Shown piece by piece: positions 3,996 to 56,784 of a stretch of DNA of 64,000 bases (position 1 is its first letter; each line of letters opens with the position of its first letter). This DNA is from an uncultured bacterium. GTDB lineage: Bacteria; Patescibacteriota; JABMPQ01; CAVVCK01. The position numbers and the translations under genes are program-made. The notes under the pieces are model-generated. The model was not told the DNA's origin and made no database searches. It saw only the letters and a list, made by a program, of their open reading frames with translations. Where the stretch lies: positions 431,656 through 495,655 of the forward strand of contig CAVVCK010000002.1 in NCBI GenBank assembly GCA_963746775.1, in the 5' to 3' direction.

Positions 3996-4020
3996 AATAG
4001 AATAAATATAATTAGTATCA

Positions 4021-4112
4021 AAATTCCTAATTTCTAATAAAATTTTTAATATCCAATGACAAATTATTTTTGAAATTTGACATTTGGATTTTTATTAGGA
4101 ATTAGAAATTGG
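4021..4112. repeat. Family-A word hairpin (TAGAAAT/GGAAAT words), long imperfect inverted repeat
   Basis: ATTCCTAATTTCTAATAAAA...TTTTATTAGGAATTAGAAATT outer arms and ATCCAATGACAAATT...AAATTTGACATTTGGAT inner arms fill the spacer between two GT4 genes. Confidence 0.6.
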
Positions 4113-4164
4113 TAATTGGAAATTAAAACACTGTATTACATAAAACAATATTAGTATAATCCTA

Positions 4165-5449: not shown

Positions 5450-6022
5450 TTTGTTCATTTACAAAATTTCCTTTTCTCTTTATAGCCCTAAAATTTAAGG
5501 CTTTAATGAGGAAAGGAGGTAGCATGAGTAGCTACCCGAGTGGGTTTGTCTAACAATAGGCAAAAATGCGAACCAGACCAAGATTCGACGGGGCGTCGAG
5601 GTCTGGTTGAACTTATTTTCCCCGTTAAACCTCTAACTGACAGAAGAAAGGAGGTTAACCCTGATTAAATCAGATTATGGCATGACGGCTTGCCATTTTC
5701 TGAAGAGCAAGAATAACCGTCAAACCCCCTGCATATTAAGGAGGTAAAATGCAGGTACACAAACGCTGGTTAGCAATGCTAACTAGCGCGATCTGAGAAA
5801 ACGCCACTCAGATCGTACAGAGGCGGTTCCCTGGGAGTTACCGCCGGGCGAAAAACTCCCAAACGGCCACGCTCAAGGCCACACCGAGACAGGCGATCTC
5901 GGCATTGAGCACAGGGGGCAAGCACCACATCGATCTTTTGCTTCGCCCCCACCCTTTTCAGAAAATATAATTAAATTGTATTTTGTGAAAATTAAAAAAT
6001 CACGCCTTAGGCGTGATTTTTT
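5450..6022 (+). ncRNA. Unclassified large structured RNA (about 570 nt). Strand is assigned from the promoter/terminator pair and is not certain.
   Basis: 210 of 420 nt are G+C in 5521-5940, against 18-30% in flanking lines. More than 10 directly readable helices, two pseudoknot-type pairings and three AAGGAGGU boxes. No credible ORF. See findings. Confidence 0.6.
5994..6022. terminator. Intrinsic terminator, A6-ATCACGCC-tta-GGCGTGAT-T6 (bidirectional geometry)
   Basis: GC-rich 8-bp stem flanked by an A-run and a T-run. Confidence 0.75.
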
Positions 6023-6048
6023 ATTATCTATTATTTTATTCAAAGTAC

Positions 6049-6069
6049 AGACAGGTTTCAAACCTGTCT
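6049..6069 (-). terminator. Stem-loop AGACAGG tttcaaa CCTGTCT directly after the stop of the Wzz-like gene
   Basis: Read directly. A covarying paralogue lies at 9390-9410. Confidence 0.5.
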
Positions 6070-6073
6070 TACC

Positions 6074-6688
6074 TTATTCTTCTTCCTTCAAATATTCTCT
6101 AAAAAATGCCAACCCCAAACCAATAAATATACCACCCAATAAACCAAACGCACCTACCAAATAAGGGTTATATTTTTTTAAAGTAATAATGGGTTCATCC
6201 GCTTCTACAGAAAACGAACTGTTACCTTCAGCATTTATTTCTAGAGTTTCAACTTTTTTCTTAGTCTCCTCTACTAAGGCTTTAGATAATTTACCCACCA
6301 CATCTCTATTGCTATTATTTAACCTCACGTCTATTAAATGAGAAGATAATTGCTTTGTCTTAACTTTTTTAGCTTCTTGATAAGCATCGCTCATTTTATC
6401 TTCTAAACCTGCTTCTTTGTAAACTAGGATTATAACTTCTGGAGTCTCAAGCCAACCGGTAATAGTATTGCTTAAATATTCAGCTGCCTGAATTGAATAA
6501 TAATTATCATACTGAAAATCTTCTGTTTTTTCTCTTTCAACTCTATGAATAGTCATTAAGATTGAGGCGTCAAAGCTGTCTTTTTGTAAAAACCCTAAAA
6601 TTAAAGATAAAGCTCCACATAAAACCCCTATAATTATAATAAATTTAATTTTTTCTTTTAGCACTTTAAAATAATCCTTTAAGTTCAT
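6074..6688 (-). CDS. Wzz/polysaccharide co-polymerase-like chain-length determinant (short form)
   Basis: 204 aa. N-terminal TM (FIIIIGVLCGALSLILGFL) and C-terminal TM (LVGAFGLLGGIFIGLGLAFF) flank a soluble domain, which is the PCP topology. Lies in the glycan cluster. Confidence 0.65.
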   Translation of the reverse strand: MNLKDYFKVLKEKIKFIIIIGVLCGALSLILGFLQKDSFDASILMTIHRVEREKTEDFQYDNYYSIQAAEYLSNTITGWLETPEVIILVYKEAGLEDKMSDAYQEAKKVKTKQLSSHLIDVRLNNSNRDVVGKLSKALVEETKKKVETLEINAEGNSSFSVEADEPIITLKKYNPYLVGAFGLLGGIFIGLGLAFFREYLKEEE

Positions 6689-7904: not shown

Positions 7905-7973
7905 AGGTTAGATATTAGTTAGTAGTTAGTGGTGATTAGTAGATTCTACTCATCACAAACTACTCACTACAAA

Positions 7974-9410: not shown

Positions 9411-9427
9411 CTTCATTATTAACTTTA

Positions 9428-9886
9428 AATAGGCAGGCTATAAGCCGAATTCTGTCTCATCCGCCATAGATTAACAGCGAAGGCGGATTGCCTTCATTGA
9501 AAACTACGGCGAATACTATGATCATCTATCTAGCCTTACTATTACTAGCAAGGTCATGCTTTTTATAAATTACACCAGATGGGGTTTACCCTATTATAAT
9601 GTTACCATTATAACCTGTGAGCTCTTACCTCACTCTTTTCACCATTGCCTGCCATAGCCTATAAAGGCGACGGCTGGCTGTATATGTCTCTGTGGCACTT
9701 TCCCTCACCCTATCTAGAAGATAGAGTGCAATTGCCGTTAGCAATCACCTTGTTTCAAAGTCCCAAGGATTAATAGAAAATCCTATGAGGTTTTTCTACT
9801 CTCGAATCCATAAGCTCTGAGGTGTTCGGACTTTCCTCCCCTTATTATTATATAAATAATAAGAAGCGATCATAAACCTGCCTACT
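9428..9886 (-). ncRNA. rnpB: RNase P RNA, bacterial type A
   Basis: The minus strand reads ...TAGGCAGG...GGGGAGGAAAGUCCGAACACC (CR-I), GGUGAAAAGAGUGAGGUAAGAGCUCACAG (CR-II/III region) and GACAGAAUUCGGCUUAUAGCCUGCCUA (CR-V plus the P1 3' strand). Confidence 0.9.
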
Positions 9887-13827: not shown

Positions 13828-13860
13828 GATTTTTATTACTTAATAATTATTTTATAAAAC

Positions 13861-13940
13861 CATCCGCTTTATCCGCCAAATCCGCTAATCCGTAAACAAT
13901 AGATAACGGATTAGGCGGATTATTGCGGATAAGCGGAAAA
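13861..13940. repeat. Family-B word hairpin (ATCCGC/GCGGAT words), copy B1
   Basis: CATCCGCTTTATCCGCCAAATCCGCTAATCCGT...ACGGATTAGGCGGATTATTGCGGATAAGCGGAAAA. The left arm is nearly identical to copy B2. Confidence 0.75.
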
Positions 13941-13944
13941 TATA

Positions 13945-14488: not shown

Positions 14489-15100
14489 TTATTTTTCTTC
14501 TATAAAATATTTCTTTAAGTCTTTTCTACTCTTCATTTCAGGTAGACAATTATCTATGAAGTTTTTGTAAGTATAATTCTTATGTGGGAATTGGCTTAAA
14601 ACTATCTCTTTATTACATAAAGTCCCTGATCTTTGATTTACATAGTCTAGATAGTTAGACCAAGGATATTTATTGAGGTTATGGGTTATTTTGTGTAGTT
14701 TAGGATTTAGATTAATGTAGGCAGAGAGCCAGAGAAGATATTCGTTGGAGTTAATGCGGATGGATTTGAAGCGGTCCTGGAATAATATACCGGATTTATC
14801 ATGTTTTTTATTAAAATAAATGGTATAGCTCGTTCCTAACCTATACATAAATTCTGAAATAGCATTATCTGACGTTTGTTTTAATATGAAATGATAATGA
14901 CTAGGATTTAGGCAGTAGGCTATAAATTCTACTCCCAAAGACTCAGCCTTTTTCAGAAAGGCTGAGTCTTGAGATTTTAAGCTTCTTATGGTTTTAATAA
15001 AGCGAATATAATCTCTTGTTTCTAAAAAAATATTTCTTTTATCTACACCACGGTTGTAGATATGATAATACTCGTTATTAGAAAATATAGTCCTCCTCAT
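14489..15100 (-). CDS. IS200/Y1-transposase-like protein of the REP-associated tyrosine transposase (RAYT) type
   Basis: YHIYNRGVDKRNIF...AYCLNPSHYHFIL (HUH)...FQDRFKS...YINLNPKLHKI...YPWSNY. Confidence 0.75.
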   Translation of the reverse strand: MRRTIFSNNEYYHIYNRGVDKRNIFLETRDYIRFIKTIRSLKSQDSAFLKKAESLGVEFIAYCLNPSHYHFILKQTSDNAISEFMYRLGTSYTIYFNKKHDKSGILFQDRFKSIRINSNEYLLWLSAYINLNPKLHKITHNLNKYPWSNYLDYVNQRSGTLCNKEIVLSQFPHKNYTYKNFIDNCLPEMKSRKDLKKYFIEEK

Positions 15101-24764: not shown

Positions 24765-25019
24765 CTACATTCCTTCAATCTCTTTTATTTTAACATAAGG
24801 ACCGCTAATTTGGCTAATTTCTACTTTAGAACCGCTCAAAACTGTCCCTTTACTTAATAATTTAATATTAAATTTCAAATTAGAAGGTAGAATAGTTTCT
24901 CCATGCTCAGAAATTTTTCCCAAGCCAATTTTAATATTAGTAATTTTTTTTAAGCCATTTTTTCTGGCATACTCTTTTATATCCCGAACTATTTTGTCTG
25001 CTGCATGTAGGTCGTGCAT
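24765..25019 (-). CDS. HypA-like nickel metallochaperone lacking the zinc-ribbon domain (84 aa)
   Basis: Starts MHD (compare the MHE Ni site). The alignable HypA core runs up to EISQISG...VKIKEIE. No CxxC pairs anywhere. Confidence 0.6.
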   Translation of the reverse strand: MHDLHAADKIVRDIKEYARKNGLKKITNIKIGLGKISEHGETILPSNLKFNIKLLSKGTVLSGSKVEISQISGPYVKIKEIEGM

Positions 25020-25060
25020 AAAATCAATATAACATTAAAACAATATAATTAAATAACAAT

Positions 25061-25429
25061 TTATTTTTTATTATCTATACTTTTTCCTAAAGTTTTCAGT
25101 TCTGTCCAAAGCATAACACCTATTTCATCGGCTAATTTTAAAGCAATAATGTAATCTTCTTTTTTTATATAATTCTCATTTAAAGAGAAATAGAGAAGGT
25201 ACTTAGACTCTTTTAATGATCCATAAGATATTTCAAGAAAATTCAACTGGACAGCTCTTTTCCTTCTAGCAAAACCTTCAATATAATTAAGTATCACCGA
25301 GAGTAATGATCTTCTTATCTATGAAACAACTCCATATAATTCTGCCTTTGGATATCCCCTGGTTAATTTATACATTGAATGAACATATTCATCCATTTTT
25401 AATTTTAACTCATCTTGAAACTTAGGCAT
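25061..25429 (-). pseudogene. Four-helix-bundle protein gene (23S rRNA IVS / Avd-like family) interrupted by one in-frame TAG at 25319..25321
   Basis: Own translation: MPKFQDELKLKMDEYVHSMYKLTRGYPKAELYGVVS*IRRSLLSVILNYIEGFARRKRAVQLNFLEISYGSLKESKYLL... The track shows only the 78-aa distal part (GTG start). Confidence 0.75.
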
Positions 25430-25432
25430 TTG

Positions 25433-25464
25433 TTATTTTGTTCTTGTGTTATCTTGTTATTTTG
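25433..25464. repeat. 32-nt intergenic motif TTATTTTGTTCTTGTGTTATCTTGTTATTTTG (31/32 identical to 36195-36226)
   Basis: Direct comparison of the two sites. Confidence 0.8.
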
Positions 25465-25466
25465 GC

Positions 25467-26735
25467 TTAATGTACCGAACACGTAATACAAGGATCATAA
25501 GCTCTGATCATCATTTTTATTTTCCTTGTTCTTTCTTCTTCTGTCAAATTTAGAACTCTTGATAAATATTGTTCTAAATCTCTTTCCATATTAGATATTA
25601 GTTGCGCTGTTGGTGTAATAATATTTAGTTTAGTAATCTTTCCCTTGCTACTTATTCCATAGGCATGATAAAGCGTTCCCCGAGGCGCTTCTATCGCTCC
25701 TACTCCGTAGCCTTCTTTCACTTTATAATCTGTAGCTATATTTTTCAAATCTGATTTTAAAACTTTTTCTAATAATTTTATACTTTCTTCAATACTATCA
25801 ATAATTTCAATCATTTGCGCTAAAATATTGTAAAAAGAATTACAAGAAGGCAATATAATACCCGATTTTTTTAATAATTTTTGCGCTTCTCTGTTTAATT
25901 TTTCATGATTAATATTAAGCCGGGCCAGTGCCCCTACCATAATTTCTTTATCGTTTTTCTTAACCCTCTTAACTGCTTCATAGGGCAATTGAATTTCTTC
26001 TATATTATTTTCAAATTTATCTGGTGAAATATTTAATCCTTTCGTTGATACTACGCTACCATCATATATTGAATATTCCTTTTTATTGCTCAAAGCTACA
26101 TATTCCGTCTCCCGACTAAAGCCTGGATATTTTAATTTGCTAAAAAATTCTCCTAGAATTGCAGCTTCTTTTAATATCTGACCACTTTGTTTTAGTAATT
26201 TCTCTACTTTAGATCGATTTGGTGCTACTCTAAAACCTCCTATTTTGCCAGACACAGGATGTATTGATCTTCCACCAAAAACATGAATCAGCTCATTACC
26301 ATATTCTCTAATGGACAAAGCTAGCTTAGTATATTCTGGAAATTGTTTAATTAAAGTAGAAGCTTCTGAAATATCAAAGAAATCTGATAGAGATAAAAAA
26401 TAAATATGCAGTGTATGGCTTTGAATAAATTGGCCCAGCATTAAAATTTTACGCATTATAACTGCATCTTCGGGAATTTTAACGTCTAAAGCTGATTCAA
26501 CGGCTTTTAGCGCAGTTAAGTAGTGAACAACCGGACATACTCCGCAAATACGAGCTGAAATATTAGCTGCTTCTTCAAAATTCCTGCCTACCATTATTCT
26601 CTCAAAAAGCCTAATGCCCATTATTACTTCAAAGCGAGCTTTTTGAACATTACCATTAACAATATCACCAATAAATCCAGCATGGCCTTCAATTTTGTCT
26701 ATTTGATTAATTTTAATTGTTCTTTTATTACTCAT
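25467..26735 (-). CDS. [NiFe]-hydrogenase large subunit, group 3b-like (alpha)
   Basis: 422 aa. N-terminal RICGVCPVVH and C-terminal DPCITCSVH-stop. Confidence 0.9.
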   Translation of the reverse strand: MSNKRTIKINQIDKIEGHAGFIGDIVNGNVQKARFEVIMGIRLFERIMVGRNFEEAANISARICGVCPVVHYLTALKAVESALDVKIPEDAVIMRKILMLGQFIQSHTLHIYFLSLSDFFDISEASTLIKQFPEYTKLALSIREYGNELIHVFGGRSIHPVSGKIGGFRVAPNRSKVEKLLKQSGQILKEAAILGEFFSKLKYPGFSRETEYVALSNKKEYSIYDGSVVSTKGLNISPDKFENNIEEIQLPYEAVKRVKKNDKEIMVGALARLNINHEKLNREAQKLLKKSGIILPSCNSFYNILAQMIEIIDSIEESIKLLEKVLKSDLKNIATDYKVKEGYGVGAIEAPRGTLYHAYGISSKGKITKLNIITPTAQLISNMERDLEQYLSRVLNLTEEERTRKIKMMIRAYDPCITCSVH

Positions 26736-27478
26736 TGTTTTTTTAATTTTTCAATTTTTACTCCATAAACTTCCATCATTTCATAAATCTCTTTCTCACT
26801 CACCCTATCTTTCAATGCTTTAATTATATTTTCCCAGTTAGCCTCTTTCAAAAATCCTCTACAACCATAGCACTCTAACCCACCAGATAAACAAGCAGCA
26901 CCACATCCTCCAGCTGTAGCCGGTCCCAAGCATGGCTTTCCTTCTTGTAATAAGCATTTATAACCATTTATTTGGCACTCATAACAAACTGGCCTTTGGA
27001 TATTCTTAGGATTACGGCCAGCTAGCAGCATATATACTATTCTCAAGAAATCTTTATTATCAATAGGACAGCCCAGCACTTCATAATCAACTTTAACGAC
27101 TTCTTTAACTGATTCTACTTTATAATCTTCCACTTCCTTTGGTCTTTCGTAAACAAATTTAGGCTTCACTAATTTAGGATGATAATTTTTCATTTTCTGC
27201 ACTCCCCCATGAGTAGCGCAAGTACCCAGCGCTATTAAAATCTTACTTCGTCCGCGAATACTTTTTAAAAATTTAAATTGTTCATCTAATAATGGAGTAC
27301 CTTCTACAAAGACAATATCATAGTTGCCTTCCTCGGGTAGTTCTTCAATCAAATGAAATTCTGCCAAATCAATTCTTTTAGTTAATTCTAAAAATTTCTC
27401 ACCTAAATCTAGGATAGCAAATTCACATCCCTCACAGCATGTTAAGCTTACTATCCCTACTTTTGGTTTCTTAGTCAT
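26732..27478 (-). CDS. [NiFe]-hydrogenase small subunit, group 3b-like (delta)
   Basis: 248 aa. VSLTCCEGCEF, GTCATHGG, Cys-rich C-terminus. ATGA overlap with the large subunit. Confidence 0.85.
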   Translation of the reverse strand: MTKKPKVGIVSLTCCEGCEFAILDLGEKFLELTKRIDLAEFHLIEELPEEGNYDIVFVEGTPLLDEQFKFLKSIRGRSKILIALGTCATHGGVQKMKNYHPKLVKPKFVYERPKEVEDYKVESVKEVVKVDYEVLGCPIDNKDFLRIVYMLLAGRNPKNIQRPVCYECQINGYKCLLQEGKPCLGPATAGGCGAACLSGGLECYGCRGFLKEANWENIIKALKDRVSEKEIYEMMEVYGVKIEKLKKQ

Positions 27479-27510
27479 AAAAAGATAAAAATTTTAAAAC
27501 ATTAAAACAA

Positions 27511-27870
27511 TTATTTTGAATCTTTGATATTTTTTATTTCAGTCCAAAGCAGAGCACCTATTTCATCTGCTAATTCCATTCCCTTTTTATATTGATTTTC
27601 GTTAATAAATCCTTCCATTAAAGAAAAATGTAAAAGATATTTAGTTTCTTTCAATAATCCATACGACATCATTGAAAAATTTCTCTGATTACCCTTATTA
27701 AATCTTGCAAAACCTTCTATATAATTAAGTATTACTGACAATGAAACTCGTTTAAGTTAAGAAACTATACCGAATAATTCTTCTTTTGGAAAATTGTATG
27801 ATATCTTATAGCAATAATGAGCATATTGATCCATTTTCTTTTTCAATATTTCTCTATAATTCTCTTTCAT
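27511..27870 (-). pseudogene. Second four-helix-bundle protein gene interrupted by one in-frame TAA at 27757..27759
   Basis: Own translation: MKENYREILKKKMDQYAHYCYKISYNFPKEELFGIVS*LKRVSLSVILNYIEGFARFNKGNQRNF... The track shows only the 76-aa distal part (TTG start). Confidence 0.75.
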
Positions 27871-27905
27871 TAATTTTGTTCTCGTGCTCTAGTGTTTTAA
27901 TGTTT

Positions 27906-28652
27906 TTATAATCCTATATTCGCCAACCCTACACTATACCCATTCCACTTATTCAAATTCATCACTTGCAAATCACTCAACTTATCACAAGCCCAAAACC
28001 AGTGCATGGAGACAAAGTCTCCTATTTTTATATTTTCAATAAACTTCTTATTATTAAATTTAAAATATATATCTTTATTTTCTAAATTTCCAAAGATAAA
28101 CTGATTATCTTTAAATATTAAAGGCCTATATTTTATTTCTAATTTTCCAGATTTTATTTTTAAAACACGTGTAGGCAATATTAAACATTCATTAATAGTC
28201 TCCAAAGTATGCTCTACTGGATAATAACCTGTTCGCTTGGGAATATTCAGCACATGAAAGCTATGATGAGGCTTCGCTCCCATCGGAATCTTACCAATTA
28301 CCTTCTCTGCCATTTTCATTTTAAACTTTTTCTTCAAGTTCTGCTTATCAATCAAATAACTATAGAAATTATTCATAGAAACATTATTCAGAAGATCATT
28401 CCCTATCCAATAAGCTTCACTAACTTTAGAATTAAGTGGATCTGAAATATGACTAGCATCAGCAATTAATTTTAAATAAGGATACATAGTCTGAAATTCA
28501 GCTAAAATCTCTTCTAACCCTTTATCTTGCTGATTCTGAGATACATATTCAAAAAGATTGCTATTCTTATCACCTCCGCAATACTGCAGCTTATTAGGAC
28601 TAAAGGCATAACGAGCTGCAATCAACATTCCATTATACGATAGGTTTTCCAT
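27906..28652 (-). CDS. Hypothetical 248-aa protein with a C-terminal HypC/HupF-like domain
   Basis: Residues about 155-240, ECLILPTRVLKIKSGKLEIKY...IKIGDFVSMHWFWACDKLS, parallel the local HypC MCLTYPAKILKIKGEIALIQ...LKVGDYILHNANLAIKKV. Confidence 0.6.
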   Translation of the reverse strand: MENLSYNGMLIAARYAFSPNKLQYCGGDKNSNLFEYVSQNQQDKGLEEILAEFQTMYPYLKLIADASHISDPLNSKVSEAYWIGNDLLNNVSMNNFYSYLIDKQNLKKKFKMKMAEKVIGKIPMGAKPHHSFHVLNIPKRTGYYPVEHTLETINECLILPTRVLKIKSGKLEIKYRPLIFKDNQFIFGNLENKDIYFKFNNKKFIENIKIGDFVSMHWFWACDKLSDLQVMNLNKWNGYSVGLANIGL

Positions 28653-29553
28653 GTAATTGTTTTTGATCTTCTAGTTTCTCTCTAAATTTCCAAAACAAAA
28701 CTACTCCCACTAAAATTATTAACGCTCCCAATATTTTATCTAACGACAATTTATGAGTTACAAAAGTAGCGTTTAAAAATGTTGTAATTGGTGAAGCTAA
28801 TACTAAAACCGAAGCTGTCACCGTCACTGGCAATTTCTTCAAAGCACTATACCAAGTAATTACATACCCGCCTAAAAATAGTGAGACCAATAATATCCAA
28901 GCCATTTGATTAGAGCTTAAATCTAGCAAACCTCCCATATTCCCTGTAAATAATAAAAATAAAACTAAAATAATTGATCCAAAAAACATTCTGCCCCAAG
29001 CTAGGACCATCGAATCAATATTCTTTAGAGCAATTTTGGCAATAATATTTTCCGCAGCCCATAAAAGCGTGGCTATCAATATTAAAATTTCAGCGTACCC
29101 GAATTTCAGTCCAGAAAAGCCTTCAAAAATTACATTGCCTGTTAATAAAATTCCCAAAGCTATAAATTGCAATTTACTTAGCTTCTCTTTTAAAATCGGA
29201 AAGGCTAGGATAGCCACCCAAATAAATAAAGTTTTATGTATAAATGAGGCAGATACTGGAGAGGTAAGGCTTAAGCCTTGGAAAAACAATAAAAAAGGAA
29301 CGCTGCCACCTATTAAGCCTATTAAGCTTAATTTCAGCCAGTCTTTTTTACTTAATAATTTTAATTTCTTAAAAATAAAAGGAGTTAGAACTATTAATGT
29401 CAAAAATAGAGCAACTACTACATTTTTCAAGGTCGTATATTGAAAAGCATTTTTACCTAAAGCCTGCATGCCAAATTTATTAAAAAAATTGGCTAAGCCA
29501 GAGATGACGGCCGTTGCTAGGACTAAATAGAATCCTTTTTGAATATTGATCAT
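28633..29553 (-). CDS. EamA/DMT-superfamily transporter
   Basis: 306 aa, about 10 TM helices, two-repeat architecture. Confidence 0.7.
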   Translation of the reverse strand: MINIQKGFYLVLATAVISGLANFFNKFGMQALGKNAFQYTTLKNVVVALFLTLIVLTPFIFKKLKLLSKKDWLKLSLIGLIGGSVPFLLFFQGLSLTSPVSASFIHKTLFIWVAILAFPILKEKLSKLQFIALGILLTGNVIFEGFSGLKFGYAEILILIATLLWAAENIIAKIALKNIDSMVLAWGRMFFGSIILVLFLLFTGNMGGLLDLSSNQMAWILLVSLFLGGYVITWYSALKKLPVTVTASVLVLASPITTFLNATFVTHKLSLDKILGALIILVGVVLFWKFREKLEDQKQLHGKPIV

Positions 29554-29599
29554 TTTTTTGTTAATACAAATTACAAATTAAACAATTATCTACACTATT

Positions 29600-29670
29600 C
29601 TGTTTTTGACCTGCTTATCTGTAATATTTAAAAAGCGGACTTAGCGGATTTTAGCAGATACGCGGAAAAA
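29600..29670. repeat. Family-B word hairpin, decayed copy B4
   Basis: The right arm AAGCGGACTTAGCGGATTTTAGCAGATACGCGGAAAAA is intact. The left arm is degenerate (CTGCTTATCTG in place of CCGCTTATCCG). Confidence 0.55.
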
Positions 29671-29729
29671 TATATTATTTAATATTTTTATTTTACTACT
29701 TATAGAGCCTTGGTGCAATGTTGAAAAGT

Positions 29730-29936
29730 TTATTTATTACTAAAAATATCCATAATTTCCTCAGCCTCTTTCCTGAAAACCTTTTTTATAGCCAAATTAG
29801 CATTATGTAAAATGTAATCTCCCACTTTAAGATTTTTTAACATACTAATATTAACTTCTAATTTATTCTTTTTATCTTGAATTAGAGCTATTTCTCCTTT
29901 AATTTTTAATATTTTAGCAGGATAGGTTAGACACAT
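29730..29936 (-). CDS. hypC: Hydrogenase maturation chaperone HypC
   Basis: 68 aa. MCLTYPAKI N-terminus and VGDYIL motif. Confidence 0.85.
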   Translation of the reverse strand: MCLTYPAKILKIKGEIALIQDKKNKLEVNISMLKNLKVGDYILHNANLAIKKVFRKEAEEIMDIFSNK

Positions 29937-29937
29937 T

Positions 29938-32232
29938 TTATTCTTCTTTTAGTTTATATAAGTAATATTCTCCTTCATGGGCTACTAGATCCATGTGTTT
30001 GTTTTTAAATTTTATCACCCTTTTGTAATTATCTAAAGTAAAATTAGCATATTCTTGTGAGCCATTTTCTTGTTTAGCCCACAATATTCTTTCCGAAATA
30101 TTTTCCGTATACCCTCTCCAAATAAAATATCTTATGTTAAAATTTTTTAATACTCGGATAACATGTTCCTCAGTATTATTTTTTAATAAATAACTAATAT
30201 ATAATAAATAATGATCTTGTATATAACGGTTATTAGAGTTATCTATATAATAACCCCTTGCTTGATCTAATCCCCAAATCATTTCTTTATTATCTAAATT
30301 ATTATTTAAATATTCTGACATTAAATACAATTTATCTCTCGATATACTCGGATCTGGTGAATATAGAGACATATAATTTATTCTTTTGTTAAATTGTAAA
30401 TTTCCAATTGTAATTATCCAGATCGATAAGAATGTATATAAAAATAATTTTAGGTATTTATTTCTTGTAAAAAATATTTGACTCAATAAAACAAAAAATA
30501 AAACATACAATGAAATAGCATACCAGATAACAACATGTCCTATATAAACCCAACCGAAATATAGAATAATAGTAGCAAACAATAGTAAAATAAATTCCCT
30601 TTTCAATTTCCTATAAAATATATTCTTTATATAATAAAATATTATAACTGGAGCAAAAAGAATAAATGTAAAACCTATGTTTAACGCATCAGAAATATAT
30701 TTTTTATTTCCTATATAAGTAATATCAAAAGGTATATTTAAAAAATAACTCAAATCCTTTTTTTGTTTATCATCCCATATCAAGTAAGCTTCATTTCTCA
30801 TCTCATTAACTATATATTTTTGTGAATCTCGACCTAAAGTATCATAAAAAGATTGTTTTGAAGCTAACTTCTCACTTAAAATTGGGTCAATCGGGTTACC
30901 GCTAAATTTAATATTTCTGACAAACCATGGCAACATAAAAATAAATATTATTAATCCCCAAATAAAAAAATATTTTACTTTTATTTTATTTCTAATTATT
31001 TGTACTAGAAAAAATATTACCAACGGAACAATATACCATGTTAGAAAAAAATATTTTAACCCGGCCGCGATACCACAGAAAACACTAAAAATAATTAAGT
31101 CTTTTATTTTTCTTTTTTTTAGATAGTTTATAAAAGAACAATAACTGATCAATGTATAAAAAACAAAAATCATTTCTATTTTATGGTCTTCTAAATTTTG
31201 AAAAAATATTACAGGCAATGTTAAATAGGCAATAATAGCATAAACGCCACCCTTTAATTTATTTTTTCTAAAGAAATAATAAATGCATAAAACAATTAAT
31301 AAAGTAAAAATAAAAATAAGCGCTAAAGTTATTTGGAAGTTAAAAAGTAAATATCCTAAAGTAAATAACATTTCTCCATTTTGAGGAAAACCATAATAAA
31401 TCCAATAAGGAAAATTTACTATCCCATGATTCTCAACGAAAATCTTAGGATAAGTTAAATAGGAAATGAAAGCATCAAAACCAGAAGGAAATTGCTGAAA
31501 TATACCCGAAATATCAATTCCTAAAATCACAGGAATAATTAAAAAAATACCTTTTCCAAATAAAGTTAATTTTTTGAGTTCATAAAAATTATTTTTATCT
31601 TTAAAATAAGTCCACAATTCTATAATTTCTTTATAAGTAACAAAGGTTACAATAATCATTAAAACATAAGCAATAATTCTATAATATAAACCAAACATTC
31701 CTAAAAAATACACAATAAACATTAAAGCACCAAATCCTAGAGCACAAGAAAATAAAAACTTTTCTAAAAAAAAGCTAGTTTTATATTTAAATATTTTTAA
31801 TGTTTTACAACCTAAAGAAAAAGATATTAAAAATATCCAGGAAACTAAAATAATAGTAATTATATCATTACCAATAACGCCTAAATTATAAGAAGATCTA
31901 GCATAAATCCAGATAATCCATAAAAATGTAAAAAAATATAAAGACAAAGGCAAATAATATACAGGTATTTTTAAATCATTTATCTTATTTTTAAGTCCTT
32001 TTCTGCTTATTGACATAAAGTCTTTAATTTTTTTGCTTGGCCAAAAAATAATTAAAACTATTTTAAACAAAGCTAAAATATTAGCTATAAGTAAAGCAAA
32101 AGTAACAAACAAAGCTACTGATGATATAAATGCTTCTCCATAGTTAGGAAAACTATAAAAATAATAAACTATTACAACAATTCCCCACATCAGGAATAAT
32201 CCTGCAAAAATTTTTGAATAATATTTTTTCAT
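29938..32232 (-). CDS. Large polytopic membrane protein (764 aa), possibly a GT-C-type glycosyltransferase
   Basis: More than 14 hydrophobic segments followed by a soluble C-terminal domain. The function call is by architecture only. Confidence 0.4.
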   Translation of the reverse strand: MKKYYSKIFAGLFLMWGIVVIVYYFYSFPNYGEAFISSVALFVTFALLIANILALFKIVLIIFWPSKKIKDFMSISRKGLKNKINDLKIPVYYLPLSLYFFTFLWIIWIYARSSYNLGVIGNDIITIILVSWIFLISFSLGCKTLKIFKYKTSFFLEKFLFSCALGFGALMFIVYFLGMFGLYYRIIAYVLMIIVTFVTYKEIIELWTYFKDKNNFYELKKLTLFGKGIFLIIPVILGIDISGIFQQFPSGFDAFISYLTYPKIFVENHGIVNFPYWIYYGFPQNGEMLFTLGYLLFNFQITLALIFIFTLLIVLCIYYFFRKNKLKGGVYAIIAYLTLPVIFFQNLEDHKIEMIFVFYTLISYCSFINYLKKRKIKDLIIFSVFCGIAAGLKYFFLTWYIVPLVIFFLVQIIRNKIKVKYFFIWGLIIFIFMLPWFVRNIKFSGNPIDPILSEKLASKQSFYDTLGRDSQKYIVNEMRNEAYLIWDDKQKKDLSYFLNIPFDITYIGNKKYISDALNIGFTFILFAPVIIFYYIKNIFYRKLKREFILLLFATIILYFGWVYIGHVVIWYAISLYVLFFVLLSQIFFTRNKYLKLFLYTFLSIWIITIGNLQFNKRINYMSLYSPDPSISRDKLYLMSEYLNNNLDNKEMIWGLDQARGYYIDNSNNRYIQDHYLLYISYLLKNNTEEHVIRVLKNFNIRYFIWRGYTENISERILWAKQENGSQEYANFTLDNYKRVIKFKNKHMDLVAHEGEYYLYKLKEE

Positions 32233-32299
32233 AAAACTATAAATAAATAACCCTACTCCTTAAAGCAGGGTCATTTATATTTTAATTATTTTAGTTATA

Positions 32300-33124
32300 T
32301 TAAATCACCCCCTCAATCCCTCTCAACTGCTCCCAACTAAATACCGGCCCATCCTTACAGACATAATAAGGACCAACAGCACAATGTTCACATACCCCAA
32401 TACCACATTCCATACGACGCTCCAGGGATAAATAAATATTTTCATCTTGAAAACCTTTTTCTTTTAATTTATCTATGACAAATTTACACATAATGGGCGG
32501 CCCGCAAACTAAGGCTACACCAGAAGCATCTGTTTCTTGCTGATCAAATAAAGCTGTGATTAAACCTATATTACATTTTACTCCTGAAATATTTTCTTCC
32601 CTACCTTTATCCAAAGTAATACTTATTTCTATATTCTTGCACCAATCATCAATTTCATCTTTAAATATTAATTCCTCCTTATCCCTGGCTCCATAAAATA
32701 CCTGCATATTGCTAGATTTGGCGCTACAATAGGACTTAATTAGGGATCTAAAGGGAATAATGCCAATTCCACCAGCAACAATTAAAACTTTTTTATTATT
32801 AATTTTATCTATTGGCCAACCATTGCCATAAGGTCCTCTAATGCCAACTGTATCACCTACTTTCATAGTGTGCATTCTCTTAGTCAATTCTCCCACTTTA
32901 CGGATACAAATCTCTATATATTTTTTATCATAAATAGATCCACAATAAGCAAAAGGAGCTTCATTAAAACCAGGAATGGATAACTCTAAAATTTGCCCCG
33001 GACTAAACTGAAAATTTTTTCTATATTTTCTATTTTCAAATCTTAATTTATAGAGATTGATAGTATCGTTTTCCTTCTTTATACTTATTATTTTTGCTTT
33101 TTCTGTTTGGTATTGGTTTTGCAT
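32300..33124 (-). CDS. Hydrogenase gamma subunit (FAD/NAD(P)-binding, 2Fe-2S; HydG/AsrB-like)
   Basis: 274 aa. GGIGIIPF and the C-terminal CGIGVCEHCAVG cluster. Confidence 0.8.
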   Translation of the reverse strand: MQNQYQTEKAKIISIKKENDTINLYKLRFENRKYRKNFQFSPGQILELSIPGFNEAPFAYCGSIYDKKYIEICIRKVGELTKRMHTMKVGDTVGIRGPYGNGWPIDKINNKKVLIVAGGIGIIPFRSLIKSYCSAKSSNMQVFYGARDKEELIFKDEIDDWCKNIEISITLDKGREENISGVKCNIGLITALFDQQETDASGVALVCGPPIMCKFVIDKLKEKGFQDENIYLSLERRMECGIGVCEHCAVGPYYVCKDGPVFSWEQLRGIEGVI

Positions 33125-33341
33125 TTTTTAAACTAATTATGAAATTAATGTCCTTGTAGATATTACTTCTAGCTAGATTAATAGCCTCAAATCTACTTCT
33201 TATGTATATTTTTTGATTTTTTTCTAAACGTTTTGAAATGTAATACTTTATATTGAGTTGTTATTTTTTCACTAAGTACCTTTGACTATATTAACATAAT
33301 ATGATATAGATAAACGTCAGACAAAAGAGGAGGACGACGCA

Positions 33342-33623
33342 ATGGCTGCGTTCGAAACTATAAAAGTACCTAGTATCGACCAAATTACAATGGCCTTCGC
33401 AACACGAAAGGAAGAAAAACGCTACGTTTTTTTTCAGGTCCGTAATATTAGAGATATAACAAAAAAAGTAATAGAATTAAGAGTAATAGTTGAAGCCATT
33501 AGCCGCGATAAAACACGGCTGAATCTGGTTATAAAAGGTACTGCTATTATTTATGGCAGAATTCGTAAGGTACTTTGTAGCTTTAACACGCTCTCTCGGA
33601 CAGGTAGCATTGTTACTACATAA
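33342..33623 (+). CDS. Hypothetical basic 93-aa protein on the opposite strand within the hydrogenase locus (alternatively a short sRNA)
   Basis: GAGGAGG sits 8 nt upstream of the ATG. The 5' part is locally GC-enriched. AACGctaCGTT followed by T8 at 33418-33436 could instead end a short transcript. Confidence 0.4.
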   Translation: MAAFETIKVPSIDQITMAFATRKEEKRYVFFQVRNIRDITKKVIELRVIVEAISRDKTRLNLVIKGTAIIYGRIRKVLCSFNTLSRTGSIVTT

Positions 33624-33710
33624 CCCCCTCGTTCTTTCCCTTTCATTTTATATTATTTCCTTCTATATATCCTCAATATAGGACAAAGTTGATTTTAATG
33701 ACCAAAGGAA

Positions 33711-34688
33711 TTATTTATCCTCTAAAATCTCCTTCAAAACCTCGCTTATTTCAATCCCCACCGGACAAACTCTAGAACACCTCCCACAACCCACACAACC
33801 GGAAATACCAAATTTATCAGGAGTTCTGACAAATTTGTGGGTATACCAATAATATATTCTTTCCTCGGTAGAATTTAAAAATTTATGATTACCGGCCACT
33901 TCTGAAAATTCATGATAAAAACAAGCATCCCAACATCGAACTCTCTCACCTTCGTCTTCTTCTAAACTCGGCCTATCATCTATTCTAAAACAATAGCAAG
34001 TAGGACAAGCTAGGGTACATTTACCACATTCTATACATCTCTTACCCAGCTCTTCCCATACTTTCTTATTATATCCTTTTTTCATTTTCTCTCTAATTTT
34101 CAACATTATAGGATCTTGGCCTTCCTCTTTTATTGGTCCTGCAAACTGAATATGATTATAATTCCTATAACCAAATTCTTCTAGTATTCTCTGCCCTTTT
34201 TCTGATCCGGTGAATACTTCATACAAATCTCCATGCTTTTCTAAAAATATATCAAATCGAACATGCTCCAAAATATGTTCTTCAAAATTTTCTAAGAATA
34301 TTTTAAAAGATTTACTATCTTTATTATTTGAACTACCTTGACCAATAACTATAATATTTCTCCTTCTCGTTTGATAATTTAAATCTTTTTCAAAAACATG
34401 GTCATACAAATTTAGAGCTTTTAAATCAAAAATGGTCATACCCAAAGCTATGGTTGGTTTCAGATTAAGTTTACCCTCTTCCAAATTACTACCCTTATAT
34501 TTAAATAAAGTTTCACACGGGGGTAGAAATAATTTTTTAAAATTTTTTCTGGCAACGGCGCCATTTAAAACAATATCTTGATAATCTTTGACATAGCCTA
34601 AGTCAAGGCCATCAGGTGCAAGTGGGGCGTATATTTTATGGGTTTCTAATAAATATTTTATTAGCTCTTTTAATTTTGTTTTTGTCAT
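33711..34688 (-). CDS. Hydrogenase beta subunit (4Fe-4S; HydB/AsrA-like)
   Basis: 325 aa. CIECGKCTLACPTCYC and CVGCGRCSRVCP. Confidence 0.8.
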   Translation of the reverse strand: MTKTKLKELIKYLLETHKIYAPLAPDGLDLGYVKDYQDIVLNGAVARKNFKKLFLPPCETLFKYKGSNLEEGKLNLKPTIALGMTIFDLKALNLYDHVFEKDLNYQTRRRNIIVIGQGSSNNKDSKSFKIFLENFEEHILEHVRFDIFLEKHGDLYEVFTGSEKGQRILEEFGYRNYNHIQFAGPIKEEGQDPIMLKIREKMKKGYNKKVWEELGKRCIECGKCTLACPTCYCFRIDDRPSLEEDEGERVRCWDACFYHEFSEVAGNHKFLNSTEERIYYWYTHKFVRTPDKFGISGCVGCGRCSRVCPVGIEISEVLKEILEDK

Positions 34689-34764
34689 AATATTTTATAA
34701 AGCACCAAACTACAAATAACAAATTCTAAAGTAGTTTTAATTTTTGTAATTTGTGTATTGTTTG

Positions 34765-45153: not shown

Positions 45154-45172
45154 AAATCATTAACTATGTAAT

Positions 45173-45250
45173 TATCCGCTTTATCCGCCAAATCCGCTAT
45201 ATCCGTAAACTACAAATAGCGGATAAAGCGGATTCTGCGGATAGACGGAA
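45173..45250. repeat. Family-B word hairpin, copy B2, between rplN and rplX
   Basis: ATCCGCTTTATCCGCCAAATCCGCTATATCCGTAAAC...AGCGGATAAAGCGGATTCTGCGGATAGACGGAAAA. Confidence 0.75.
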
Positions 45251-45280
45251 AAAACATACTGATAAATTTTATAATCTACT

Positions 45281-48996: not shown

Positions 48997-49037
48997 TTAA
49001 TAATTGATAATAAATAATGAAAATGAAATTAGTTATT

Positions 49038-49096
49038 TAGAAAATAGAAATTTGTAATAGATATTAGAAACTAGAATTACAAATTTCTATTTTCTA
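49038..49096. repeat. Family-A hairpin A4: perfect 21-bp stem TAGAAAATAGAAATTTGTAAT / ATTACAAATTTCTATTTTCTA with a 17-nt loop, between rplW and rplB
   Basis: Arms at 49038-49058 and 49076-49096 verified base by base. Confidence 0.85.
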
Positions 49097-49181
49097 CTTT
49101 CAATTACCCTTTTCTAGTTTCTGTACATCCAGTTTCATGTAAAATATTTTAAATGTGATCACTTTCAATAACAAATATAAT

Positions 49182-50832: not shown

Positions 50833-50853
50833 AATAAAATAATATTAAATTAA

Positions 50854-50914
50854 TTCCGCGCTATCCGCAAACTAAGTTATTGCGGATGATACGGATAAAG
50901 CGGATTACGCGGAT
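50854..50914. repeat. Family-B word hairpin, copy B3 (short left arm), in the rpsJ-rplC spacer
   Basis: TTCCGCGCTATCCGCAA...TTGCGGATGATACGGATAAAGCGGATTACGCGGATC. Confidence 0.65.
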
Positions 50915-50951
50915 CAATAAATTACGTAAATTAATATTTACCTATCAAAAA

Positions 50952-51001
50952 CCGGAAATTTAAGAAGCCAGAAAACATACGCCGGCTTCTAAAATTTCCG
51001 G
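50952..51001. repeat. 18-bp stem-loop CCGGAAATTTAAGAAGCC / GGCTTCTAAAATTTCCGG (one mismatch)
   Basis: Read directly. In the rpsJ-rplC spacer. Confidence 0.7.
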
Positions 51002-51072
51002 ACCTTGCTTACTTTAAATTTACTAAATAACAATAAAATAATTATTTAGTAAATTCTTTAGCTTATACTTTT

Positions 51073-51096
51073 AAGTCCCGATTTTAATCGGAACTT
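51073..51096. terminator. Small stem-loop AAGTCCCGAT ttta ATCGGAACTT just after the rpsJ stop
   Basis: Read directly. One C/A mismatch. Confidence 0.4.
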
Positions 51097-51111
51097 TAAT
51101 TATAAACTATC

Positions 51112-52659: not shown

Positions 52660-52701
52660 TTTTTTATTTTTAGTTAATAGTTATATAAAATATTAGTTTA
52701 T

Positions 52702-52729
52702 ATTATAGCTGTAAATTTACTTATGTCAA
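52702..52729 (-). promoter_or_regulatory. Consensus promoter TTGACA-N16-TATAAT upstream of tuf
   Basis: Minus strand has TTGACA at 52729..52724 and TATAAT at 52707..52702. Confidence 0.6.
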
Positions 52730-52747
52730 ATGTTTTTTGGGCTTTTT

Positions 52748-52856
52748 CACAGTATTAATATACCAATTTATGCGAATTATACGAATAAATACTTGATTAG
52801 TATTATTAATATCAATTAGTATGCTTATCTCGAGTATTTTCGAGAGATTAGCATCG
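52748..52856. repeat. Family-C word element, copy C3
   Basis: AGTATTAATATACCAATTTATGCGAATTATACGAAT...GATTAGTATTATTAAT...GATTAGCATCG. Shares its ends and words with C1 and C2. Confidence 0.55.
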
Positions 52857-52861
52857 AAATA

Positions 52862-55498: not shown

Positions 55499-55503
55499 AT
55501 TTT

Positions 55504-55585
55504 CGATACTAATATACTAATTTATACGAATTATACTAATACAAAATTATTCGTATTATTAGTATTCATTCGTATATTGGCATCG
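55504..55585. repeat. Family-C word hairpin, copy C2, between rpsG and fusA
   Basis: CGATACTAATATACTAAT...TTAGTATTCATTCGTATATTGGCATCG. Both ends are nearly identical to C1. Confidence 0.7.
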
Positions 55586-55586
55586 A

Positions 55587-56745: not shown

Positions 56746-56782
56746 ATAAGATTATTTATCAAATAAAACCGAATAATCTTAT
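56746..56782. repeat. 11-bp perfect stem-loop ATAAGATTATT / AATAATCTTAT
   Basis: Read directly. Confidence 0.6.
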
Positions 56783-56784
56783 TT

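What the first reader, a model, noticed from the sequence alone, without database searches (positions are those of the whole stretch)
27511..27870. Second interrupted four-helix-bundle gene (in-frame TAA), wedged between hydrogenase genes and sharing cassette-like flanks with the first
Translation from ATG 27870 gives MKENYREILKKKMDQYAHYCYKISYNFPKEELFGIVS*LKRVSLSVILNYIEGFARFNKGNQRNF..., with TAA at 27757-27759.

Both copies sit in spacers of the hydrogenase locus. One lies between the DUF/HypC-like gene and the small subunit. The other lies between the large subunit and hypA-like.

The two copies share flanking motifs:
- An upstream T/G-rich block (27872-27902 versus 25433-25464; roughly two thirds identical by eye).
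- A downstream AACATTAAAACAAT (27498-27511 and 25031-25044).

This looks like a repeatedly inserted small gene cassette rather than ordinary operon members. The family includes Avd of diversity-generating retroelements, but no RT or TR/VR pair is in the window.
Basis: partly seen in the sequence, partly recalled or inferred. Interest (0 to 1): 0.7.

Follow-up and report, generated by a model that had tools for sequence, protein, structure and literature searches.

The report
Stop-interrupted IVS-type gene cassette in hydrogenase operon
A small mobile "gene-in-a-hairpin" cassette of the kind known from bacterial 23S rRNA intervening sequences sits between two hydrogenase-locus genes of a Patescibacteria-like genome, and it and a second copy 2.4 kb away each carry a recent stop codon at the same invariant glutamine, so the protein is switched off or made only by rare readthrough.

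Summary
The ORF at 27870..27511 (-) belongs to PF05635/TIGR02436 (S23p, "23S rRNA intervening-sequence protein"). It has an in-frame TAA at 27757-27759. A 53%-identical paralogue (25429..25061) has TAG at the homologous codon. Every intact homologue inspected has Gln there (SQLRR, start of helix 2).

The cassette reading also holds. Each ORF fills its intergenic spacer and is bracketed by inverted arrays of about 8-nt tandem repeats. About three quarters of 70 intact homologues in other contexts show such arms. Among 64 window genes, the two ORFs rank first and second for this feature. Close relatives lack cassette 2, which sets its borders at 27474-27908. Across relatives the cassette-1 site is empty, holds an ORF-less hairpin, or holds a cassette.

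This matches the Coxiella/Leptospira 23S rRNA IVS element, but here it sits in mRNA spacers. It is not a DGR Avd: scores fall below the cut-offs, and no RT or TR/VR was found.

The stop is derived. An 86.6%-identical orthologous locus has CAA, with dN/dS 0.12 and no rate acceleration. No other window gene is interrupted.

Best reading: a recent nonsense knock-out or knock-down of a dispensable cassette ORF. A tolerated leaky stop, read as Gln, is not excluded. Chance of the same-codon coincidence is about 0.01-0.05.

The parts
27474..27908 (-). Whole cassette 2 (5' arm + ORF + 3' arm), filling the spacer between the DUF6390 gene and the hydrogenase small-subunit gene
   Evidence: Nucleotide homology of close relatives L088/L089 to the window breaks at 27909 and resumes at 27473. 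An unrelated-context homologue, L087, matches 27475-27914 at 73%.
27511..27870 (-). S23p / four-helix-bundle ORF, copy 2 (119 codons plus stop), interrupted
   Evidence: PF05635 73.1 bits, TIGR02436 68.1 bits.
27757..27759 (-). In-frame TAA replacing the invariant Gln (SQLRR) at the start of helix 2; the next base is C
   Evidence: Gln invariant in 62 homologues; helix 2 starts here. TAA-C is the context of only 3 of 46 genuine TAA stops in the window.
27871..27908 (-). 5' arm of cassette 2: octamer array AACATTAA|AACACTAG|AGCACGAG|AACAAAAT ending 3 nt before the ATG
   Evidence: (period-8 autocorrelation 0.65).
27476..27510 (-). 3' arm of cassette 2: octamer array TTGTTTTAATGTTTTAAAATTTTT, complementary to the 5' arm, starting right after the ORF stop and ending at the small-subunit ATG
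   Evidence: TRF finds period 8 with 4.2 copies. Inverted repeat 27477-27510 / 27876-27909. Duplex -17.1 kcal/mol, z -3.4.
25061..25429 (-). S23p / four-helix-bundle ORF, copy 1 (122 codons), interrupted by TAG at 25319-25321
   Evidence: The orthologue in L086 is intact, with CAA at this codon.
25430..25466 (-). 5' arm of cassette 1: AAAATAAC|AAGATAAC|ACAAGAAC|AAAATAAC
   Evidence: TRF finds period 8 with 4.5 copies. Inverted repeat. 2 of 37 positions differ from L086.
25020..25060 (-). 3' arm of cassette 1: ATTGTTAT|TTAATTAT|ATTGTTTT|AATGTTAT
   Evidence: 1 of 41 positions differs from L086.
27906..28652 (-). Upstream neighbour, DUF6390 gene
   Evidence: PF19927, 172 bits.
26732..27478 (-). 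Downstream neighbour, [NiFe] hydrogenase small (delta) subunit
   Evidence: PF01058. Orthologues are 80-92% identical.

Best explanation
The feature is an IVS-type S23p cassette, about 435 nt long. It consists of a ~120-codon four-helix-bundle ORF in the loop of a hairpin. The hairpin arms are inverted arrays of about four octamer repeats.

The cassette was inserted, co-oriented, into the DUF6390 / small-subunit spacer of this lineage. A second, only distantly related cassette occupies the large-subunit / hypA spacer.

Shown here:
- Family membership, fold, arms and borders.
- Presence/absence of the cassettes in relatives.
- The stop of copy 1 is derived.
- Neither copy shows any other sign of decay.
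- The cassette-1 arms are conserved against the one orthologue (no orthologue of cassette 2 was available).

Inferred:
- The cassette is co-transcribed with the operon.
- The arms pair in the RNA, as in 23S rRNA IVS elements that RNase III cuts, or they serve as leader/spacer signals. That would explain why they are kept.
- The ORF is dispensable in this lineage and was recently silenced by a C-to-T change on the coding (leading) strand, CAA to TAA, at the invariant Gln that opens helix 2. What remains is a 37-aa helix-1 peptide.
- Any full-length protein would arise only from rare near-cognate tRNA-Gln readthrough, which would restore the wild-type residue.
For: Family and fold:
- PF05635 and TIGR02436 scores are above cut-off.
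- An AlphaFold model of the closest intact homologue has four helices and pLDDT 93. It matches 2GSC, 2RLD and bAvd 4DWL.

Arms:
- TRF finds period-8 arrays and the arms are inverted repeats.
- 76% of 70 distinct homologous loci have 5'/3' flank complementarity with z above 3, although the repeat unit differs from locus to locus.
- The two window ORFs rank first and second among 64 window genes for this feature.

Mobility and borders:
-.
- Neighbouring genes are on the same strand in 57 of 60 cases upstream and 51 of 57 downstream, with a median gap of about 37 nt.

Known precedent:
- The Coxiella IVS is 428 nt, with an S23p ORF in the loop and a 28-bp terminal inverted-repeat stem cut by RNase III.
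- It has tandem heptamers just upstream of the ATG, and its ORF is decaying and not expressed (PMC4990558).

The stop is derived and recent:
- The orthologue in L086 (86.6% nt identity) has CAA.
- dN/dS is 0.124 for the 4HB gene, against 0.076 for hypA and 0.102 for PGK.
- Relative-rate tests show no excess change in either copy.
- Each copy departs at only 2 of 39 highly conserved columns.

The stop is specific to these genes:
- No other minus-strand gene in the window has an internal stop.
- TAA, TAG and TGA all serve as normal stops in the window (46, 14 and 5 genes).
- All 72 distinct homologous loci and 239 of the 240 top protein hits are uninterrupted. The single exception is this gene's own fragment.

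The arms are kept:
- 3 differences in 78 nt against L086, where synonymous sites differ at 31-51%.
Against: - Two independent nonsense mutations landing on homologous codons has a chance of only about 0.012-0.054 under plausible mutation spectra. A pure-accident model is therefore strained.
- Neither copy carries any second lesion. Both events would have to be very recent, less than roughly a tenth of the window-L086 divergence.
- The window arms form only weak duplexes: -17 and -15 kcal/mol, z -3.4 and -2.2. L037 reaches -44. Whole-cassette folds are no better than shuffles. RNase III processing here is an analogy, not a result.
- No transcript, protein or read-level data were available.
- The remaining ~480 kb of the source contig could not be inspected.
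Confidence: 0.55

Rival explanations
1. Tolerated or selected leaky stop. The TAA (and the TAG in copy 1) acts as an expression attenuator. Near-cognate tRNA-Gln occasionally reads it and inserts the wild-type Gln. A small amount of functional four-helix-bundle protein is therefore still made, and the rest of the ORF stays under purifying selection.
For: - Both stops replace the same invariant Gln. If only Gln-codon nonsense is tolerated, the same-codon coincidence rises from about 0.01-0.05 to roughly 1 in 6. That figure is my own count of three and four Gln codons per gene, two of them homologous.
- Neither copy shows a second lesion or a rate acceleration.
- The internal TAA is followed by C, the rarest context of true TAA stops here (3 of 46). 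+4U is the strong termination context in bacteria (PMC5289835).
- Gln is the residue inserted at UAG and UAA in suppressor-free E. coli (Nilsson & Ryden-Aulin 2003, cited in PMC5289835).
Against: - The stop is not conserved. The orthologue of copy 1 has CAA, and none of about 310 other family members inspected has it.
- Programmed readthrough is rare in bacteria.
- Copy 1's context, TAG-A, is ordinary (6 of 14 true TAG stops).
- No readthrough-stimulating structure was identified.
- Nothing shows that the protein is needed at all. The Coxiella homologue is not expressed.
Confidence: 0.25
2. Genome-specific suppression or recoding. A suppressor tRNA-Gln or altered release-factor activity elsewhere in the 547-kb genome reads these TAA/TAG codons efficiently, so the genes are effectively intact.
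For: Both interrupted genes come from one genome, and both stops sit at Gln codons.
Against: - No tRNA gene is in the window.
- TAA and TAG terminate 60 of 65 ordinary genes here.
- None of the other ~63 genes (440 Gln codons) has an internal TAA or TAG.
- The other Gln codons of both ORFs are CAA or CAG, and both ORFs end in TAA.
Confidence: 0.05
3. Split gene. The 37-aa N-terminal peptide and a re-initiated 76-aa C-terminal product are both made and assemble into a bundle.
For: Gene callers predict both pieces. In-frame TTG and GTG codons lie 6-8 codons after the stops.
Against: - The candidate restart codons differ in position and type between the two copies and have no upstream signal.
- The C-terminal piece would lack helix 1 and the invariant Q..R start of helix 2.
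- No homologue is split in this way.
Confidence: 0.04
4. Avd-like accessory protein of a diversity-generating retroelement, or a remnant of one.
For: The fold resembles bAvd (TM 0.79-0.89). There are weak hits to the Avd models.
Against: - Both Avd models score below their cut-offs.
- No reverse transcriptase among 46 scanned ORFs. The only RVT_3 hit is a 144-aa RNase H.
- No TR/VR pair.
- Homologues sit singly in operon spacers, not next to RT genes.
Confidence: 0.02
5. Sequencing or assembly error, or a minority allele taken as the consensus.
For: The source is a metagenome-derived contig. The second assembly may come from the same reads.
Against: Two different substitutions in two genes appear identically in two assemblies that differ at five other sites.
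Confidence: 0.03

Closest known systems
23S rRNA intervening sequence (IVS) elements carrying an S23p ORF (Coxiella burnetii, Leptospira, Brucella; Warrier et al. 2016, PMC4990558)
   Same: - Same protein family (PF05635).
- Same size: about 435-440 nt here, 428 nt in Coxiella.
- The ORF lies in the loop of a stem made by ~30-nt terminal inverted repeats.
- Short tandem repeats lie directly upstream of the ATG.
- No good Shine-Dalgarno sequence.
- The ORF is expendable and prone to decay.
   Different: - Located in spacers of a protein-coding operon, not in helix 45 of 23S rRNA.
- The arms are AU-rich octamer arrays forming weak stems (-15 to -17 kcal/mol).
- RNase III excision has not been shown.
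- The ORF lesion is a single nonsense codon at the same invariant Gln in two cassettes.
XCC0516 (PDB 2GSC) and BT_0352 (PDB 2RLD), S23-family four-helix-bundle proteins of unknown function
   Same: Sequence homologues (E 4e-14 and 2e-4). Near-identical fold (rmsd 0.8-1.9 A). 2GSC has the same AQLRRAA..S...N..EG motif.
   Different: Those are intact, free-standing genes. Their function is equally unknown.
bAvd, accessory variability determinant of diversity-generating retroelements (PDB 4DWL, 8UB7)
   Same: Same four-helix-bundle fold and the same superfamily.
   Different: 16-19% identity. Below the Avd model cut-offs. No RT, TR or VR nearby.
REP/REPIN elements and their RAYT (Y1) transposases
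   Same: The genome is full of dispersed families of intergenic hairpins. The window also encodes a distant RAYT-like Y1 transposase at 14489-15100. Hairpin elements and 4HB cassettes occupy the same kind of site, and in relatives even the same site (L091 against the window).
   Different: The RAYT match is below cut-off (39 bits against 80). The hairpin arms are built from 7-9-nt tandem repeats, unlike classical REPs. No link between this transposase and the elements has been tested.

Membership tests
PF05635 / TIGR02436 (S23p, 23S rRNA intervening-sequence protein, 'four helix bundle protein') | Score above the curated cut-off of the family models | tested here: met
   PF05635 gives 73.1 bits against a cut-off of 33.8. 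TIGR02436 gives 68.1 bits against 24. The stop was read as Gln.
PF05635 / TIGR02436 | Four-helix-bundle fold | tested here: met
   AlphaFold model of the 68%-identical homologue P0001: helices 2-27, 38-58, 62-88 and 94-119, pLDDT 93. Best PDB matches are 2GSC and 2RLD. The fold was modelled on the homologue, not on the interrupted sequence itself.
PF05635 / TIGR02436 | Conserved S-Q-L/I-R-R ... N-Y-I-E-G motif with an uninterrupted reading frame | tested here: not met
   The motif is present, but the invariant Gln codon is TAA at 27757-27759.
23S rRNA IVS element | S23p ORF enclosed by terminal inverted repeats that can form a stem | tested here: met
   Arms 27477-27510 / 27876-27909. Duplex -17.1 kcal/mol, reached by 1 of 300 shuffles. 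Flank-complementarity z 4.3-5.0. The feature is family-wide.
23S rRNA IVS element | Short tandem repeats immediately upstream of the ORF start | tested here: met
   Period-8 arrays. Coxiella has GACAGAT heptamers in the same place.
23S rRNA IVS element | Inserted in helix 45 of the 23S rRNA gene | tested here: not met
   It lies between protein-coding genes. Rfam finds no rRNA in the window, only RNase P.
23S rRNA IVS element | Excised from the transcript by RNase III | not testable with these tools
   This needs RNA-end mapping. No rnc gene was looked for outside the window.
DGR accessory protein Avd | Score above the cut-off of NF033474 or PF22296 | tested here: not met
   NF033474 gives 26.6 bits against 80. 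PF22296 gives 34.1 bits against 40.
DGR accessory protein Avd | Adjacent reverse transcriptase and a TR/VR repeat pair | tested here: not met
   No RT among 46 ORFs. No long direct repeat within genes. This covers the window only.
Programmed stop-codon readthrough | The stop codon is conserved at that position among orthologues | tested here: not met
   The copy-1 orthologue L086 has CAA. Close relatives lack cassette 2 altogether. All other homologues have Gln.
Programmed stop-codon readthrough | Measurable full-length product, or a stimulatory context or structure | not testable with these tools
   Only weak context evidence is available: TAA-C is rare among true stops.
Stop-codon reassignment (TAA/TAG = Gln) | In-frame TAA/TAG across many genes, and those codons not used as terminators | tested here: not met
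   Only these two genes are interrupted. TAA ends 46 and TAG ends 14 of 65 genes.

The most novel reading that the evidence does not exclude
The two stops are not accidents. They would be a lineage-specific, selected knock-down: nonsense codons placed on an invariant Gln so that near-cognate tRNA-Gln readthrough yields trace amounts of wild-type protein.

More broadly, Patescibacteria would carry a large, undescribed population of IVS-like 'ORF-in-a-hairpin' cassettes and ORF-less periodic-repeat hairpins. These would colonise operon spacers as well as rRNA, could be mobilised by a RAYT-like Y1 transposase, and would act at the RNA level in operon processing.
Probability: 0.2. Interest if true: 0.65.

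Novelty: new variant of a known kind. Interest (0 to 1): 0.45.

Why it matters
S23p four-helix-bundle genes are very numerous in Patescibacteria (1,834 database hits at E <= 0.001 for one copy), and their function is unknown.

This locus shows that they travel as complete IVS-like hairpin cassettes into the spacers of protein-coding operons. The arms are conserved far more strongly than synonymous sites. That links a long-known rRNA oddity to a general class of intergenic elements and gives a concrete RNA-level hypothesis to test: stem formation and RNase III processing within operons.

The paired stops at one invariant Gln form a small natural experiment. They bear on whether the ORF is needed at all, and on how leaky termination is in these reduced-genome bacteria.

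For annotation, the 37-aa and 76-aa gene calls should be merged and flagged as one interrupted gene.

Tried and rejected
- **Genome-wide recoding:** rejected. No other in-frame stops were found, and all three stop codons are in normal use.
- **Suppressor tRNA in the window:** none found.
- **Rfam:** only RNase P in the window.
- **Scan of GTDB species genomes with the hydrogenase large subunit:** returned only one distant locus, L005. The source genome is not a representative there, so copies could not be counted genome-wide.
- **Whole-cassette RNA folds:** no more stable than shuffles, z about -0.1. Only the arm-arm duplex is above chance.
- **Recent gene conversion or duplication between the two copies:** rejected. 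They are 53% identical and rank 70th of 71 as each other's relatives. The sequence around the stops also differs.
- **L037 as a true orthologue of copy 1:** not supported. It ranks 47th of 71, so a cassette at the same site there may be an independent insertion.
- **Degenerate third copy near 5956-6075:** rejected (score -1.8).
- **Literature searches for prior descriptions of repeat-flanked S23p genes outside rRNA:** nothing found. Absence from the library searched is not proof of novelty.
- **Long-term pseudogene:** rejected by dN/dS and relative-rate tests.

Full report
**Observation**

It has an in-frame TAA at 27757-27759 and a natural TAA stop at 27511-27513.

A second ORF, 25429..25061, has an in-frame TAG at 25319-25321. 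With the stop read as Gln, both score far above the curated cut-offs of PF05635 ("23S rRNA intervening-sequence protein") and TIGR02436 ("four helix bundle protein"). Both score below the cut-offs of the two Avd models.

They are the only copies in the window. They are only 53% identical, and in a set of 72 family members each ranks 70th of 71 among the other's relatives. They are therefore not recent duplicates, and the DNA around the two stops differs.

Copy 2 lies between a DUF6390 gene and the hydrogenase small subunit. Copy 1 lies between the large subunit and an 84-aa HypA-like gene. A second assembly, from run ERR11571143, differs at five sites in 10.3 kb and carries both stops.

**Where the stop sits**

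Every intact homologue inspected has Gln at this position, in the motif S-Q-L/I-R-R:
- It is invariant in an alignment of 62 proteins.
- It is present in all 72 distinct metagenomic loci.
- It is present in the PDB relative 2GSC.

An AlphaFold model of the closest intact homologue (pLDDT 93) has four helices. Gln is the fourth residue of helix 2. The fold matches 2GSC, 2RLD and bAvd. Termination at the stop would leave a 37-residue helix-1 peptide.

**Not recoding**

On the coding strand of the window, the only genes with an internal stop are these two. TAA, TAG and TGA terminate 46, 14 and 5 of 65 ordinary genes. There is no tRNA gene in the window. The other Gln codons of both ORFs are CAA or CAG, and both ORFs end in TAA.

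**The flanks are the arms of a hairpin cassette**

- The upstream blocks match at 22 of 31 positions, and no shuffle out of 1000 reaches that score.
- The 14-mer ATTGTTTTAATGTT occurs exactly twice in the window, each time just 3' of a copy. An inverted one-mismatch copy lies 5' of copy 2.

They are parts of one structure:
- Each ORF is preceded by about four tandem octamers and followed by the reverse-complement array. TRF finds period 8 and the inverted repeats are.
- In 70 distinct homologous loci from metagenomes, 76% have 5'/3' flank complementarity with z above 3 (median 5.8).
- Those flanks have a 7-8-nt periodicity that is absent from the coding sequence.
- The repeat unit differs from locus to locus, yet the two arms stay complementary.
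- As a control, among 64 genes of the window the two 4HB ORFs rank first and second for this property (z 4.9 and 4.3, median -0.1).

The window arms themselves form only weak AU-rich duplexes (-17.1 and -15.4 kcal/mol, z -3.4 and -2.2). L037 reaches -43.9. Whole-cassette folds are no better than shuffles.

**Presence and absence in relatives, and borders**

Cassette 2:
- The closest relatives found are L088 and L089 (DUF6390 86% and small subunit 90% identical in protein, about 82.5% in DNA).
- They carry an unrelated 213-nt GC-rich palindrome in place of the cassette.
- Their homology to the window stops at 27909 and resumes at 27473.
- L091 has only 3 nt between the two genes.
- L087 encodes the closest intact homologue of copy 2, in a non-hydrogenase context. 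It matches window 27475-27914 at 73% and nothing beyond.
- Cassette 2 is therefore 27474-27908.

The cassette-1 site (between large subunit and hypA):
- Empty in L005, with an 8-nt spacer.
- Holds an 88-nt ORF-less repeat hairpin in L091. That hairpin is 77-79% identical to hairpins elsewhere in the window.
- Holds a different 4HB cassette in L037.
- Holds the orthologous cassette in L086.

Across the 70 loci, neighbouring genes are almost always on the same strand, at a median distance of about 37 nt.

**Comparison with what is known**

Warrier et al. 2016 (PMC4990558) describe the Coxiella burnetii 23S rRNA intervening sequence:
- It is a 428-nt selfish element with an S23p ORF in its loop.
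- It has a 28-bp terminal inverted-repeat stem that RNase III cuts.
- Two or three tandem heptamers lie directly upstream of the ATG.
- It has no usable ribosome-binding site after excision.
- Its ORF is not expressed and is decaying.

The window cassettes share the protein family, the size and the arrangement of parts. They differ in sitting in spacers of a protein-coding operon, and RNase III cleavage is untested here. They are not DGR Avd genes:
- Scores are below the model cut-offs.
- No reverse transcriptase was found among 46 scanned ORFs; the one RVT_3 hit is an RNase H.
- No TR/VR pair was found.

**Age and meaning of the stop**

L086 is an orthologous locus (4HB, hypA, PGK) that is 86.6% identical in DNA:
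- Its 4HB gene is intact, with CAA where the window has TAG, so the stop is derived.
- dN/dS between the two 4HB genes is 0.124. It is 0.076 for hypA and 0.102 for PGK.
- The arms differ at 3 of 78 positions, while synonymous sites differ at 31-51%.

Relative-rate tests show no excess change on the window branch of copy 1, or of copy 2 against its intact sisters. Each copy departs at 2 of 39 highly conserved columns, the same as several intact members.

Either both stops are very recent or the ORFs are still constrained. If the two were independent nonsense hits, the probability that they fall on homologous codons is 0.012-0.054. That range covers transition bias of 1-4 and GC-to-AT bias of 1-4. 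No interrupted member appears among 72 loci or 239 top protein hits from elsewhere.

**Verdict on mechanism**

Most likely (about 0.55), the ORFs were recently silenced in this lineage. The change would be C-to-T on the coding strand, which is the leading strand given the strongly negative GC skew of the plus strand. The cassettes persist because their arms matter or cannot be excised cleanly.

The main rival (about 0.25) is a tolerated or selected leaky stop:
- Gln is the residue inserted at UAA and UAG in suppressor-free E. coli (reference cited in PMC5289835). Readthrough would therefore regenerate the wild-type protein.
- The internal TAA is followed by C, a context used by only 3 of 46 true TAA stops.
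- Against it, the stop is not conserved.

The remaining alternatives are each unlikely, for the reasons listed with the rivals: a suppressor tRNA elsewhere in the genome, a split protein, a DGR remnant, and an assembly error.

**Limits**

The other ~480 kb of the source contig, the reads and any RNA data were out of reach. Open questions are therefore the genome-wide copy count, suppressor tRNAs, RNase III, allele frequencies and processing. The literature library gave no earlier description of repeat-flanked S23p cassettes outside rRNA. That does not prove there is none.

Noticed in passing
window 13828-13944, 45154-45280, 50833-51111, 29554-29729; 42956-43058, 52660-52861, 55499-55586; 35551-35685, 48997-49181, 56780-56935, 62970-63163, 3996-4164, 39108-39323; 34689-34764, 7905-7973, 37479-37644: Many ORF-less intergenic spacers are hairpins whose arms are inverted arrays of 7-9-nt tandem repeats. 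They fall into dispersed families with units ATCCGC.., ATACGAAT/ATACTAAT and TAGAAAT/TGGAAAT. They look like 4HB cassettes without the ORF. One such hairpin occupies the large-subunit/hypA site in relative L091.
   Followed up: partly
window 14489-15100 (-): A 203-aa ORF with a weak IS200-like Y1 transposase match (PF01797, 36 bits). Its best NCBIfam hit is 'REP-associated tyrosine transposase' at 39 bits, below the cut-off of 80. It is a candidate mobiliser of the hairpin elements; this is untested.
   Followed up: partly
window 36190-36224 (-): A near-copy of the 5' arm of cassette 1 (AAAATAACAACATAACACAAGAACAAAATAAT; 19 of 21 match in the core). It sits directly upstream of the ATG of an unrelated gene (Sm_multidrug_ex, 35686-36189), with no 4HB ORF and no matching 3' arm. 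It may be a solo arm or a portable A/C-rich leader.
   Followed up: partly
L088 565-777 and window 36960-37076: A different, GC-rich long palindromic element fills the DUF6390/small-subunit spacer in the closest relatives. A similar-looking element lies in the window between 36959 and 37077.
   Followed up: no
window 24765-34688: The group-3b-like hydrogenase locus is interspersed with unrelated genes. The order is Fe-S subunit (33711-34688), FAD/NAD subunit (32300-33124), a 764-aa PMT_2 glycosyltransferase-like gene, HypC, an EamA transporter, DUF6390, cassette 2, small and large subunits, cassette 1, then HypA-like. The HypA-like protein is only 84 aa against a 112-position Pfam model, and it is also 84 aa in the orthologue L086.
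   Followed up: partly
window 9425-9885 (-): The bacterial RNase P RNA match spans 461 nt for a 367-position model. The gene therefore appears to carry about 90 nt of extra sequence.
   Followed up: no
L086 vs window 25061-25429: Synonymous divergence of the 4HB gene (dS 0.85) is higher than that of the adjacent hypA (0.40) and PGK (0.57). The arms flanking it are almost unchanged, at 3 differences in 78 nt.
   Followed up: no
window 28039-28149: TRF reports a 57-nt tandem duplication (1.9 copies, 78% matches) inside the DUF6390 gene, just upstream of cassette 2.
   Followed up: no
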